Source: the human T2T-CHM13v2.0 reference genome, Homo sapiens. From it: DNA of 64,000 bases. The position numbers and the translations under genes were made by a program. Under the pieces are notes generated by a model. It saw only the letters and a program-made list of their open reading frames with translations, was not told the DNA's origin and did not search any database. Position 1 is the first letter of the stretch; each line of letters begins with the position of its first letter. Location: NCBI RefSeq assembly GCF_009914755.1, contig NC_060929.1. The stretch is one strand, 5' to 3'. Below are positions 13,101 through 60,020 of this stretch, piece after piece.

Positions 13101-13941
13101 CATCCCCTCTACTGCCTCCACCATCACTACTTATTGACCAAAATATTTATGAATAATGCACTGTAAACATTTCTACAGAAATTCTTCTTCTTATAAACAA
13201 AGCACCATAGAAAGATCATGAATGAACAATTTTATAGAATTTAAAAGCCAAAGAAATGTTAATCAAGGTTAAAATTATGCCTTATTCCTGTCAGCCACAG
13301 AAATTAGGTAAAAGCTTTGTTTTCTGATGAGGCAATTTCATGGAGCCTTTCTCAGTTACCTTCACTGAGCCCAACCCTTTTTCCAAGATGTCATTAAAAC
13401 ATCTTCACAAGAGGAGACGGCCAGCTATGGCACTTCATTTTTCAGTCTCTAACTGCCTCTGGATTTGTTTTACCTCTCAAGTCTGTACTAACATCCAGGT
13501 TTTGGATAATATGACGATTTGCATGGATTACATATTTAGAGCAGATTATACCATGTTTGGTTTGGTGGTCAGATGAGTCTAGTGTAGGGAATATAAATAT
13601 GGCTCACTATGTGAAGGTGCAAGGGTAGCATACTGTTATATTTCTAAATCGAATAAAATTGATATATTCATTATCCAACTTAGTTTGGCTAGATATTCAG
13701 TAGTGGCTGTAATTGGTTTGTTGCTCCCCTCTTTTTTGGTATGATACAGGAAGCTTATGTGGCCTACACACTAGGAAAAAGGCAGGGAAGGACTTTTGGA
13801 CCTCAGTTTACTTTTTTTTGCATTGTGATAGATGCTCATGGTTTTAAGTCTTGATGGTCCAATTTTAGGTGCTCCACTTAACTCCAAGCCAAGCTAGGAC
13901 AGGATAGGAAACTTTGCCAAAGCTTAAAGCCTTCTAGGAAA

Positions 13942-14069
13942 TGAAATTTTTGAATAGCCTGGAATCACTTTGCCTACCTGGTCATATCACCTCTTCTAGG
14001 GTGTGATGAAGAATTTTCACGAAGCCACCTGAGGAGCCAATTATTCTATGAAAATATGATCAGCTACAT
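13942..14069 (+). repeat. Left arm of a 128-bp inverted repeat flanking the RAB5C retrocopy
   Basis: Ungapped reverse-complement match to 15680-15807, 108/128 identical by hand count. Confidence 0.93.
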
Positions 14070-14094
14070 CATAAAAATGAAAATTAACATGATA

Positions 14095-15823
14095 GGAGGC
14101 TGAAGTCTGGGACACTGCCTTTGGGGAGAGAAGCAGAGCTGGTCCAAGCCCTGGCCCCAAGTAAAGCCACTGTCCTGGAGCCACCTTGGAGGTCCCCCTC
14201 CACACTAAATGCCTCTTTGCACAGCACTGGTCCCTGCTCCCACCTCTCTGGACCACTGCAGCTGGATGGGCAGTGGCGAGTTGGGGAGGCACAGCATGAC
14301 TCAATAAGATCTGTCTATTTAAGCGTGTTCTGCTGGGTCTGCAGTGGGCAAATCTAACCTGTCCTCTGCCTTGTGAAGGGACAATTTCATGCATACTAGG
14401 AGAGCACACTCGGAGCAGCCTTCCTCCCACAGAATGTCTGCTTGGACAACACAACAGTTAGGTTTGAGATCTGGGACACGGTTGGACAGCAGTGGTATCA
14501 CAGCCTGGCCCCCATGTACTCTTGGGGGGGCCCAGGCTGCCATCATGGTCTATGACATCACCAATACAGATACATTTGCCAGAGCCAAGGACTGAGTGAA
14601 GGAGCTACCAAGCAGGCCAGCCCCAACATGGTCCTTGCGCTCACGGGTAACAAGGCAGACCTGGCCAGCAAGAGACCCCTGGAATTCCAGGAAGCACAAG
14701 CCTATGCAGACGATGACAGTTGGCTGTTCATGGAGACATCAGCAAAGGGTGCAATGAATGTGAATGAAATTTTCATGGCAATAGCTGAGAAACTTCCCAA
14801 GAACAAGCCCCAGAATGCAGCTGGTGCTCCAGACAGAAACCAAGGTGTGGACCTCCAGGAGAACCACCCGGCCAGCCCCAACCGGTGTTGCAGCAATGGA
14901 GCCCCCCTTGCCTGTCCACTGCCCCCAAGTCTTCCACCTTAGTGACCTGGAATCCACTCTAACCAATTGTACTTAACGACTCGGGCCACCTCTTGGGTAG
15001 GGGGGTAGGAGTAGGAGTCCACCATGATTTCTCCATATAATTTTGGTCATAGGCCATAGTGAGTTATTTCACCTGTACATTTCTGTACAAACACTAATTG
15101 GATTTTAAGTCTTAAGTCACTTTTTAAATGTATATGATCTTCCGCTCTTCCCACTTCCTCCTCTTCCTACTGCTTTCCCACTTTTCTTTTGCTGGTAGTA
15201 GCCACGTGCTCCTGTCTCCTGAACCTTGTATATGGGGACAGTGGGGTCCAAGCAGCTACCTTCTTTCCCTCTTGTGGAATAGCGGACCCAGCAAGAGCAT
15301 CCATATTCTTACCTTGTTTGAAGTGGTCTTGGGTTTGGGCGGTGGGGCAGGCCTTGGGGCTAGGGAAGGAAGAGGCAGCTCTTTCTTCATCTGGCTGTCA
15401 TCAGGCTGCAGCCCTCTCCCTGCCCCCTACTCCCCTCTGGGAAACCACAGCATTATCACAGCATTATTGTGACAGCCACAAACCCGTAGCCTACAACCCC
15501 TCCACCCTCTGTCACCCTGACCTCTTGCTCTGAGCCCAGTTCTGACCAAATCATCATGAGTATTTGGGGGTGGCTGGGTAAAGGGGATAGTGGGAGGAGA
15601 CAGAACCAACTTTTACTTGTATTTTGTATTGTATGTTTTCTTCAAAATGTAACCAATCAGTATCGTCAATATAGTCAAAATGTGGTTGATCATATTTTCA
15701 TAGGATAATTGGCTACTCATGTGGCTTCATGAAAGTTCTTTGCCATACTCAAAAGGGGGTGATATAACCAGGTAAGGAAAGTGATTCCAGACTATTCAAA
15801 AATTTCAGTATAGTCAGATAAAG
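14095..15823 (+). pseudogene. RAB5C: Processed pseudogene (retrocopy) of RAB5C with 5' UTR, disabled CDS (about 14273-14900) and 3' UTR; symbol given is the parent gene
   Basis: Intronless Rab5 sequence: FEIWDT(V)[48 protein letters not shown], and the RAB5C-type tail GVDLQEN..CCSN. Start ATG is GTG (14273), in-frame stops (e.g. TAG 14397), frameshifts, ancestral stop now GGA (14898). TSD aaattaa(c/t)atgata at 14081-14094 and 15824-15837. Confidence 0.95.
15680..15807 (-). repeat. Right arm of the 128-bp inverted repeat, inserted in the retrocopy 3' end
   Basis: Reverse complement of 13942-14069; bracketed by tatagtca at 15670-15677 and 15809-15816. Confidence 0.93.
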
Positions 15824-16059
15824 AAATTAATATGATAATGAGATAATAGTTTATACTCACTACATAGCAAAAAATAAAAATTAGCACTATAACAAGTGAT
15901 GATAAAGAAAGGGAGTAATGAAACACATAAGCTGTCAGTGGGAATATAAGCAGGTGCAACCACAGGCAATGCTCACAACACTTAACCACGGTGTCAGGCA
16001 TTAATGCTTTAGTTACTGAATTGTGGGAAAGTCTCTGTTGGCTAAGAGGCTGGCTAGGT

Positions 16060-20401: not shown

Positions 20402-21931
20402 CTTTTATCTCTTTCCTGAGTGACAGGCAGAGTCAACCATGCCACTCCTACCCCAACACAACCCAATGGTTCCTCCTTCACTCATGGTAAAAGCCAGAGC
20501 TCTCACAGTGGCCCATGAGGTCTCTCATTGAGCTTGTCTTCTCTAACCTTACCCTTTGTTCATGTTGCTCTAGATACCCTGACTTTGCTGTGTTCAGGAA
20601 CATGCCAAGCTTATTTGGCCTAAGAGTTTCTCTGCTTTTTCCTTTTGCCCTGAGCCCTCTTCCCCCAGATTTTTGTTTATCTTTTCATTTCATTTCTTGG
20701 CTATGCAAATGTTACCTCAAGGGAGTCACCCCTCTTGCTTTTCCAAAACTGTTATTTACCCCACTTGCTTAAATTTTTGTGATGGCACTTCTCATTACCT
20801 GATAATGTAATTTGCATTTATATTTTTACTTGCTTACTACCTGTCCTTTCTAGTAGAACTGCCACTGTATTAGGTAACAGGTTTTGTTATGTTCATTGAT
20901 TCAACTATAGGATCTAGAATGCACCAGACACATAGTATATATTTGTTGTATAAGTGATTTAATGGTCTGTCTTAACATCTTAGAGGTAACTGTGGCAGCT
21001 TCATTCACCCTCACTTTGCAGCCCAAAGTTGGAGAACTTTTCTGAAGGACTTCTATATGTCCATTTTGAAACAAGTCAGAGAAAGAGTCCTTTGTGCTAG
21101 GCTGACCAGATAGTTCCAGGCCAGGATTTTCATGGGATTTCCACTTTACAACAGAGGTCTTGAAATACCATAGTCCTGGACTACTTATGGTCTACTTTGA
21201 TGGCAAGTTCCAACTAATAACACACCATTTAATACTATATTGTGGAGTTTACTTGGCCGATGTAACAAGTCATAGAGCGTATATCAGTTCCTACAGTCTG
21301 TTGCTTTTCCTAAGCTCTCTTACTGGTTGGATACCTTCCTTATGTTGTAAAATCCTTTCCCTAGTCATACTTTTTTGGCGGGCTAGATACTATGAGTTTT
21401 TGCAATCACCAGAGAACACTGCAAAAATTCAACATCACTAAAATTTTGTCTGTATATAGGTCAGACCTTGCCTCTGCATGCAGGAAGCTTCTTGTACCAT
21501 AAAGCAAAGAGCTTGTAACGATCCATTTTTCTCTCCTTATAATACTAGGGCCATCAGCTCTTCCCACTCTTTCCCTTATTCCAAAAATTTGTGTAAGAAA
21601 GATTATGAGAGAATTTGTAAGTATAGCATACATTTGTTTGAAATATATCAGAAGGAGATAAGTTTTCATAAAAGAAAACCTCAGAAATAATATGACTTTT
21701 TAAAAACCAATTGTATTTGCAAAGACTTAGGCTTATAAGCAAAAAATTAATTGCACACTTTAACAGAGGTATTTATTGTGGAATTCTCTATGTGTTATTT
21801 TTTGATTTCATAGTAATTATACCATTTACCATCAAGATAACATTATTAAGATCTTAGAGTGAGCTATTTTAAAGGTTCATTTAAATATATTATTTCTTCA
21901 AATCCTCAAATCACTCTATTATAAATACTCA

Positions 21932-22327
<396 letters not shown>

Positions 22328-23499
22328 TCAATCTCAGTTCTTCTGATTTCTAGTCCAGTTCTCTTTCTATTTTTTCTCTTTCTATTTTACCATTATACTA
22401 TTTTGAGGTAACATTGAGTGAGTAAGGGTTCTTTATCATCTTGGTTAGTTAAGTGCATATTGATTTAACATTCATGTAATAATTGAATAATCACCTTTAG
22501 CAAATACCAGAGAATATAAATGCAGCCCAAAAATTATAAAGTACCATTGAAAGAAAACAATTTCTTCTGAAAATCCAATTTCAACAGGAGGCCAAGAGGA
22601 AATTTATATTATCAAATAAATAAGGGACTGAAAGAAAGCAGAATTTGTATGAGCTTGTACTATGAGATACCATCATAAAAAACTGATGGCATCTTTCAGA
22701 ATTGGTTAAAAGCCACAAACTTAAGAAGGAGAGGGAATTGGAAGTCTCTTCAAATATCTACTGTGTCTAGTCATGAGGCTATTTCCTGGACACTAGGAAT
22801 GACAATTATTTTATCCAAGCAAAGTAAACACTCTTCCCTGTTGCCAAATATCAGTAAGAAACATAGCTGGCAAAGAGTGAGGTGAAGGTTAAAAAAGCAA
22901 GAGAGAATATATTTATACTGATTTTTTAAGTGCTGAGTGTAATAGTTATTAATGTTAGTAAAAATGGATTAATTAGACAAGCATTCGACATTGAAAACAG
23001 CAGGCTTCTCTGTGATTTCTCAAAGTAATTTTTAATTGAAAATATGGGAACCCAAGAAAGTGATTTGATTAAAATTCTTTACTTTCAACATTGGTAATTA
23101 CAACAATAATTTCTTATTGCAGCACTTTTGAATATTAGTTAACTATTTAATTTTATGGTGCATGTCACTGATATACCTAACTGCTAGAAGATGATATGGT
23201 AATACACTTGTCATTAGTGCTTACTGATGTGTGAATTAAACATTGGTATAAAAGATGCTTCTCACAGTCATGTAAATGTTAATTAAATTGGTAAGTATAA
23301 AAACACTTCTTCTGAGCAACTTTTAATTTAAGCAGTTAGAATAAATATGTTACACATCAGGATGTTCTGATTCATATATTTTGGGATTGAGGAAAAATGA
23401 CTTTGGCAGGTTCCCTCTTAGAGTCATCAAATAGCTGTCTGTTCTTCTAATTAAGTATTTTGACATAAACTTTGAATGTAATAAGATAATATTAAAGAA

Positions 23500-23830
23500 T
23501 TGTTTACGGAAAGATAACTAATAAGTCAACATGATGAGGCATACTAGGAGAGCACAATCGGAGCAGCCTTCCTCACAGAAATTAGGTAATGAGGCAGCTG
23601 CAAAAAATGCTGGTATAATTTTTAACTGATTTAAAAATACATCACAGAGAGGTGAGAGTGCTGCTGTACTTCATATTGGTAGGGGCAAATGTAGCATATT
23701 GTCTTCATCAGCGAGGGATGTGGCCTTGTGAGAGGGGAGAATAACCAGCAATGGGAGAAGCTTTACAACCATGACAGTGCAGCCAGATCTGAAAGTCATG
23801 GGGATGTTTCTTCTAGAGAGATAAAGACAT
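23500..23830 (+). mobile_element. L3/CR1 relic hosting a 47-bp templated insertion
   Basis: With the insert removed the sequence reads agtcaacatgatgaggcagctgcaaaaaatgc, similar to the L3 3' motif as I recall it. Confidence 0.45.
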
Positions 23831-26289: not shown

Positions 26290-26826
26290 ACCTCAGCCCT
26301 GTGGCCCTGGTAGTTTTTTCCAGTGTGCCCAAATTATTTCTGGCTTTAAGCCTTTGCCTTTGGGTTCCTTCAACCCCAAATTCTTTGCCCAGGCTCTCTC
26401 ATATCCTCCTGCTCTCAACTGAAATGTCACATCCTTCAAGCCCTTTTCTGGCCATCTACTCCACAGTAGCTCCAAATTCCATGCTTGTCTCTCCTATTAT
26501 TTGACTTTATTTTTTCATGACATTCATAGTTACATGGAATGATCTACGTAATTATGTTTTTTTTGTTGTTGTTGACTATAGATAGGCCTGTTTGGGGTAC
26601 ATAGCATGAGTGAGAAATTTTGGTGTTTGGCCACTGGGATTTTGTGGTTGTTTACTCCCTGGCTCCCCTTACTCTTGTTTGTCCTCTCACTAGTATGTGA
26701 AGTTCAAGAAAAAAAAAAAAACAACTTTTGTTATTTCAGGTATTGTCACATTCTCAAAAGAATGGCAGAGTGCCATACTATTAGGCATATTGTAGGTATT
26801 CAGCAAATATTCATTAGATGAATGAT
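26290..26826 (+). mobile_element. L2 3' end
   Basis: ctcaactgaaatgtcacatccttca ... gtaggtattcagcaaatattcattagatgaatga. Confidence 0.65.
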
Positions 26827-27414: not shown

Positions 27415-27890
27415 AGATGTTTAGCGTTCATCCATATCCTGTTTTTTCCTTCCAGGCAAATGGGGGGATTATGTTTCTTCCCCAACTTCCAGTTGGAGAG
27501 GAACCTTAAAACTAGTTCTGGCCAATGGGCTCTGAGCACAAGAGACATGTGCTCAGGTGTGTAATTTCATCATTTAATCACTAGCATGAGACCCTGCCTT
27601 CTCTTTCCTCCTTCTGTGATGTGGAAATTATTACTACCCAGCTCTCTATGGTGTCTCAGGAGGCTGCAGATTCCAGATGTGCAGACATAGGAGAGCAGAG
27701 TCTTCACAAACCGGGTTCCCTAAGTGACTCCCTGGTGGCCTATGTGGAGTCTGTAGCATGGGTCCCTCAGGCACTGCATCCCTAAGTGACTGTGGACCTC
27801 TTTGGGGTACATAGTATAAGTGAGAAATTATGGCATTGGCCATTGAGATTTGGTGGTTGGTTGTTATTGCACCATAGTCAATTCTAAATG
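27415..27890 (+). mobile_element. MLT1I/J-like solo LTR
   Basis: actagttctggccaatggg...; 3' part gtgagaaat...gccattgagattt...gttgttattgcaccatag. Confidence 0.65.

Positions 27891-57789: not shown

Positions 57790-60020
<2,231 letters not shown>

What the first reader, a model, noticed from the sequence alone, without database searches (positions are those of the whole stretch)
23534..23596. 47-bp chimeric insertion stitched from the RAB5C pseudogene and a second donor 10 kb upstream
Seen: 23539-23577 matches 14391-14429 at 37/39; 23574-23589 (cacagaaattaggtaa) matches 13296-13311 exactly; the two donors share cacagaa; the insert (23542-23588) is flanked by direct repeats atgaggca (23534-23541, 23589-23596). 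tgatgaggca also occurs at 13325-13334, beside the second donor. The fragment reads Y*ESTIGAAFLT: it shares the pseudogene's premature TAG but keeps parent residues I and T where the pseudogene now has L and P (RAB5C is YQESTIGAAFLT). Inference: copied from an earlier state of this pseudogene, not from RAB5C mRNA, by multi-template microhomology-guided synthesis (polymerase-theta-like or MMBIR-like).
Basis: partly seen in the sequence, partly recalled or inferred. Interest (0 to 1): 0.72.

Follow-up and report, generated by a model that had tools for sequence, protein, structure and literature searches.

The report
Two-donor DNA repair patch near pseudogene
A 47-base stretch of human chromosome 5 is a patchwork of two pieces that match a decayed RAB5C gene copy and its neighbouring DNA 9–10 kb away, most likely pasted in when a germline DNA break was repaired in a primate ancestor; it is a tidy but ordinary example of a known kind of repair scar.

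Summary
23539-23577 matches RAB5CP2 at 37/39, 23574-23589 matches 13296-13311 at 16/16, and an 8-bp direct repeat flanks the insert. The piece spans a RAB5C exon junction, its best genome match is the local retrocopy, and it shares that copy's TAG, which RAB5C and the chr10 retrocopy lack. So it was copied from the local pseudogene after some decay (rough estimate: 15-43% of the retrocopy's age). The second donor and the 10-bp match to the break end beside it are unlikely to be chance. Corrections: only one 'ancestral' site (I versus L) is secure. The polymerase-theta label fits poorly, as donors lie 9-10 kb away against about 20 bp in cells. Best model: a break with 3' overhangs whose two ends copied two nearby templates and joined at a microhomology, with 16 nt skipped or lost later. 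Chimeric repair-mediated duplications of this kind were described in 2009. No outgroup genome was available, so the empty site is untested. Side finding: the retrocopy carries a 128-bp inverted copy of its own flank, as old as itself. Ordinary class, no sign of function.

The parts
23542..23588 (+). 47-bp chimeric insert
23534..23541 (+). left direct repeat ATGAGGCA; its last 3 bases (GCA) are also the microhomology to donor 1
23589..23596 (+). right direct repeat ATGAGGCA; also identical to 13327-13334 beside donor 2
23539..23577 (+). segment matching donor 1 (RAB5CP2); spans the RAB5C exon junction
23574..23589 (+). segment matching donor 2 exactly
14391..14429 (+). donor 1, inside RAB5CP2 coding remnant; 9.1 kb from the insert
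13296..13311 (+). donor 2, unique DNA 1,080 bp upstream of donor 1
13325..13334 (+). 10-bp match to the target end (23532-23541); likely priming or resolving site; 16 nt between it and donor 2 (13311-13326) are missing from the insert
14095..15677 (+). full-length RAB5C retrocopy (exon 1 to 3' UTR end), longer than the annotated 14095-15097
14081..14094 (+). left target-site duplication of the retrocopy (13/14 identical to 15824-15837)
15824..15837 (+). right target-site duplication of the retrocopy
15680..15807 (-). 128-bp inverted copy of 13942-14069 (108/128) inside the retrocopy's 3' end, between two copies of TATAGTCA (15670-15677, 15809-15816), which is the mRNA 3' end; separate, older event

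Best explanation
The 47-bp insert matches two local DNA donors and was likely written by microhomology-guided repair of a germline break, after the RAB5C retrocopy had begun to decay. Shown: two donors in the same orientation 1.1 kb apart, 9-10 kb from the insert; microhomology at all three junctions (3 bp, 4-8 bp, 8-10 bp); no poly(A) and no L1 endonuclease site. Inferred: the break had 8-nt 3' overhangs carrying ATGAGGCA; the left end primed at GCA in the pseudogene and copied about 36 nt; the right end primed at 13327-13334 and copied leftwards through donor 2; the two new strands annealed at CACA(GAA); fill-in duplicated the 8-mer. Sixteen bases next to donor 2 were skipped or deleted later. 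One strand making three switches at a stalled fork gives the same product and is included in this explanation. The result is likely a neutral scar.
For: Best and only other genome match is the local retrocopy. The fragment crosses an exon junction. TAG is shared with RAB5CP2 only. The GCA microhomology exists only in the pseudogene's derived state (RAB5C and chr10 copy read GAG). Donor-2 and 10-mer nulls are small. The insert has 1 difference in 33 interior bases against 15.7% expected if as old as the retrocopy (p 0.025; likelihood ratio 14-296 without using the GCA bases). Pace 2009 (PMC2671141, parts 1-3 of 8 read) describes 20 two-donor chimeras among 1,136 duplicons, 5 with donors 289-3,432 bp apart, and microhomology plus target duplication in 3 of 39 proximal cases. 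Complementary 3' overhangs give short duplications in cells (PMC8355091, abstract only).
Against: No outgroup: the insertion itself, its polarity and the empty site are inferred, not seen (no paralogous flank). The 16-nt skip is an extra step with only 1 bp of microhomology and no supporting hairpin (z 0.66 and 1.10). The donor junction is 2 bp off the longest shared register. Dating rests on 2-5 sites; with site 14427 counted and nothing else, p is 0.06. In Pace 2009 every chimera had a donor within 5 kb; here neither does. DNA versus RNA template cannot be read from the sequence.
Confidence: 0.8

Rival explanations
1. RNA-templated patch: a plus-strand transcript covering both donors was reverse-transcribed from the right break end (primed at the 8-10 bp match), with a skip and a jump to the pseudogene part, by L1 ORF2p acting without its endonuclease or by another reverse transcriptase.
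For: Both donors and the priming match are on one strand within 1.1 kb, so all copying could be one minus-strand synthesis. RNA can patch breaks in cells (PMC5110952, parts 1-2 of 4 read).
Against: No annotated transcript starts upstream of 13296 (hub table). No poly(A), no TT/AAAA site on either strand. An RNA can diffuse, so it does not need the target to be 9 kb away. Class 2 TSIPs lack target duplications (PMC5110952).
Confidence: 0.08
2. By-product of the retrotransposition itself: a fragment of the same RAB5C cDNA was captured at a nearby break when the retrocopy integrated.
For: The retrocopy did capture flank DNA at its birth: 128-bp inverted copy, 7.8% per copy against 8.2% for the retrocopy branch. 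Such captures are seen in cell experiments (PMC11702581, passages).
Against: Needs a parallel or RT-error TAG and almost no change since; likelihood ratio against it 14 to over 30,000 depending on sites used.
Confidence: 0.04
3. Single-donor copy plus 11 nt of untemplated filler at a staggered break; donor 2 and the neighbouring 10-mer are coincidences.
For: An 11-nt match alone is found for 3.2% of null positions in the 19-kb region; other chance 15-18-bp matches exist in the window.
Against: The match is 16 bp, abuts donor 1's end, lies 1.1 kb from it (0 of 35,537 null positions within 2 kb), and has a second independent match beside it (0.0005-0.004).
Confidence: 0.04
4. Canonical polymerase-theta end joining with iterative templated synthesis, reaching the donors through a chromatin loop.
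For: 3-4 bp microhomologies and multi-template inserts are theta hallmarks (PMC7407515, PMC11541566, passages).
Against: Theta templates peak within 20 bp of the break and synthesis is 1-25 nt in those papers; here 9-10 kb and about 36 nt.
Confidence: 0.04

Closest known systems
Chimeric repair-mediated duplications (Pace et al. 2009, PMC2671141)
   Same: Short copy of unique same-chromosome DNA; two donors about 1 kb apart joined at a microhomology; no poly(A); microhomology with target duplication is one of their junction classes.
   Different: 47 bp (their floor is 50), not inside a recognised transposon, both donors beyond their 5-kb cut-off; not in their Table S1.
Doublets (Thomas et al. 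2004; known only through the passage in PMC2671141, paper not held)
   Same: Short, unique, non-tandem local paired duplication under 100 bp.
   Different: Chimeric, and no longer identical to its donor.
Class 2 templated sequence insertions (Onozawa and Aplan, PMC5110952)
   Same: Copied patch at a break with microhomology, no poly(A), no L1 site.
   Different: Has an 8-bp direct repeat; donors are local; polymorphism status unknown.
Polymerase-theta templated insertions (TMEJ)
   Same: Priming and resolving microhomologies, more than one template.
   Different: Templates are 9-10 kb away and longer than usual.
FoSTeS/MMBIR template switching (recalled; named in PMC11541566 passages)
   Same: Serial switches over kilobases with return to the starting site would give this product.
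   Different: Tiny product with no copy-number change around it; cannot be told from two-ended capture.

Membership tests
Repair-templated insertion (broad kind) | Insert is a copy of sequence that remains at a unique donor site | tested here: met
Repair-templated insertion (broad kind) | Microhomology, filler, deletion or short duplication at junctions | tested here: met
Repair-templated insertion (broad kind) | No poly(A/T) tail or L1 endonuclease site | tested here: met
Repair-templated insertion (broad kind) | Empty orthologous site in an outgroup | not testable with these tools
   no primate relatives held; no paralogous flank
Pace 2009 proximal RD set | Donor within 5 kb | tested here: not met
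   9,113 and 10,231 bp; so not filed in that set, though it works like one
Pace 2009 proximal RD set | At least 50 bp, interrupting an annotated transposon | tested here: not met
   47 bp; flanks not masked in the hub table and single-copy
L1-mediated insertion (class 1 TSIP) | Target duplication of 5 bp or more | tested here: met
   8 bp
L1-mediated insertion (class 1 TSIP) | Poly(A) tail and TTTT/A site | tested here: not met
Polymerase-theta templated insertion | Template within about 20-50 bp of the break | tested here: not met
   local matches are 8 bp or shorter; donors 9-10 kb away
Polymerase-theta templated insertion | Dependence on POLQ | not testable with these tools
   ancient event
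FoSTeS/MMBIR | Serial microhomology switches by one nascent strand | tested here: inconclusive
   same product as two-ended capture

The most novel reading that the evidence does not exclude
The insert is a fossil of RNA-templated break repair in the primate germline: a reverse transcriptase primed on a local transcript by a 10-bp match, skipped 16 nt, jumped 1.1 kb into the pseudogene and resolved at 3 bp. With the 128-bp inverted capture in the same retrocopy, also between 8-bp repeats, the locus would record two template-jumping events tens of millions of years apart.
Probability: 0.07. Interest if true: 0.6.

Novelty: new member of a known kind. Interest (0 to 1): 0.27.

Why it matters
It is a clean natural record in which every junction of a germline repair patch can be traced, and it preserves an earlier state of a pseudogene. 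It suggests that catalogues with a 50-bp floor and 5-kb limit miss such events, and that an apparent target-site duplication can be tied to homology at the donor. It has no visible function: it lies outside genes and 1.7 kb from the annotated enhancer. Similar local copies also turn up in control DNA.

Tried and rejected
RAB5C mRNA or another retrocopy as source: rejected; RAB5C and the chr10 copy lack the TAG and match worse. A better contiguous donor: none found (the DNA search can miss common words). Splicing or back-splicing as the join: donor order is reversed on both strands and donor 1 has no GT at the junction. Hairpin-driven 16-nt skip: no support. A wider patchwork in the flanks: besides the known segments only one other match of 10 bp in 200 bp, against a mean of 2.1; an 8-bp match to the retrocopy's left target duplication (23528-23535 vs 14086-14093) is at chance level. 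Empty site through repeat paralogues: flanks are single-copy; the predicted junction has 0 exact and 36 one-mismatch scattered matches, uninformative. Local hotspot: 4 kept pairs plus 1 near-miss in 84 kb (the insert's own pair was filtered out) against 1 clear and 1 marginal pair in 60 kb of control; too few to call. hAT-excision footprint was considered for the 8-bp repeats (recalled) but not tested. Thomas 2004 was not held.

Full report
Observation. All coordinates check out: 37/39 to 14391-14429, 16/16 to 13296-13311, ATGAGGCA on both sides of the 47-bp insert, and TGATGAGGCA at 13325-13334 and 23532-23541. A genome search with 23530-23600 returned 2 places, the query and the local pseudogene. 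A 27-nt core with up to 3 mismatches returned 3: the insert (0), RAB5CP2 (1) and a chr10 retrocopy (3). The donor-2 16-mer occurs 5 times in the genome including the insert. Nulls: 0 of 35,537 positions have a 16-bp covering match within 2 kb of donor 1 and 48 within a 19-kb region; a target-end 10-mer lies within 50 nt of a random site at 0.0005 (8-mer 0.004); an 8-bp repeat at similar spacing occurs at 0.0006. These nulls were set after seeing the pattern, so they overstate significance somewhat.

Source. The fragment crosses a RAB5C exon junction, so its source was spliced. In the alignment of RAB5C, RAB5CP2 and the chr10 copy the TAG is private to RAB5CP2 and the insert. Two other differences from RAB5C are shared with the chr10 copy and are not diagnostic. 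At 14409 the insert keeps the ancestral A, which is secure. At 14427 the apparent ancestral A may come from donor 2, since the exact pseudogene match ends at 14426 and donor 2 starts on the same base. The 3-bp left microhomology GCA exists only in the pseudogene's derived state, which suggests decay came first.

Age. RAB5CP2's own branch has 96 changes in 1,169 non-CpG sites, 8.2%. The insert differs from donor 1 at 1 of 33 interior sites and has no private change. Five site sets give a best estimate of 15-43% of the retrocopy's age, with wide intervals (up to 0.90), and likelihood ratios of 14 to over 30,000 against equal age. Sets that count the identical repeats and donor 2 are biased by how these were found. 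On recalled primate branch lengths this points to the ape or catarrhine period, fixed before the human-chimpanzee split with probability above 0.9 in all five sets.

Mechanism. Shown: same-orientation donors 1,080 bp apart, 9,113 and 10,231 bp from the insert; no poly(A); no L1 endonuclease site. The 10-bp match to the target end lies 13 bp past donor 2, so the donor region was probably chosen by homology to the break end. Inferred: a break with 8-nt 3' overhangs; the left end copies the pseudogene from GCA; the right end copies donor 2 from 13327-13334; the new strands anneal at CACA(GAA); fill-in duplicates the 8-mer. This needs a loss of 13311-13326 (16 nt), for which folding gives no support, and a join 2 bp off the longest shared register. 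A single strand switching three times gives the same product. Rivals are RNA-templated repair (0.08), capture at the time of retrotransposition (0.04), chance donor 2 (0.04) and canonical polymerase theta (0.04).

Comparison. Pace et al. 2009 (PMC2671141; parts 1-3 of 8 and further passages read; Table S1 searched) found 1,136 such duplicons, 20 of them two-donor chimeras. Their nearest row (hg18 chr5:90,870,553; donor 964 bp upstream) fits a pair that I find at window-equivalent 75815-76977, about 53 kb past the insert; no row fits the insert. It fails their 50-bp and 5-kb cut-offs, so it works like those events without belonging to that set. Polymerase-theta templates peak within 20 bp of the break (PMC11541566, passages) with 1-25 nt of synthesis (PMC7407515, passages). 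TSIP classes come from PMC5110952 (parts 1-2 of 4). A search for RAB5CP2 found 1 paper, a case report that does not concern this insert (passages); searches listed nothing on this locus by title or abstract start. The library lacks most subscription papers.

Side finding. The retrocopy is full length, 14095-15677, with a 14-bp target duplication. Inside its 3' end sits a 128-bp inverted copy of its left flank, between two copies of the mRNA's last 8 bases. Its 7.8% per-copy divergence equals the retrocopy's age, so it likely arose during integration, as a false start, a jump to local DNA and a restart. Cell experiments report three insertions with sequence templated from DNA near the site (PMC11702581, passages; its supplementary figures were not seen).

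Verdict. Real, well supported, and a new member of a known kind. The main gap is the missing outgroup. Interest 0.27.

Noticed in passing
window 15680-15807 vs 13942-14069: 128-bp inverted copy of the retrocopy's left flank inside its 3' end, between TATAGTCA repeats, inside the target duplication; same age as the retrocopy. Arguably as interesting as the assigned finding.
   Followed up: partly
window 14095-15677: RAB5C homology runs about 580 bp past the annotated end of RAB5CP2 (15097), to the mRNA 3' end.
   Followed up: yes
window 58540-58610 vs 59060-59130: 71-bp copy (94%) of DNA 450 bp downstream interrupts an Alu; textbook repair-mediated duplication, not found in Pace Table S1 searches.
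   Followed up: partly
window 26587-26653 vs 27797-27862: 67-bp pair, 84% identical, 1.1 kb apart, unique in the genome search; likely an older local duplication near the annotated enhancer.
   Followed up: partly
L035-L036, window-equivalent 75815-75923 vs 76873-76977 and 69330-69372 vs 71356-71398: The first pair fits a published repair-mediated duplication in L1MB4; the second is a 43-bp pair 2 kb apart.
   Followed up: partly
L020-L022 (G000:C6:17875396-17876508): A fragmented RAB5C 3' UTR retrocopy in three spaced pieces ending in an A-rich tail.
   Followed up: no
chr8 control L040-L042, positions 21789-21949 vs 22967-23126 of the joined 30 kb: 161-bp local duplicate, 89% identical, 1 kb apart, in control DNA: such copies are not rare.
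   Followed up: no
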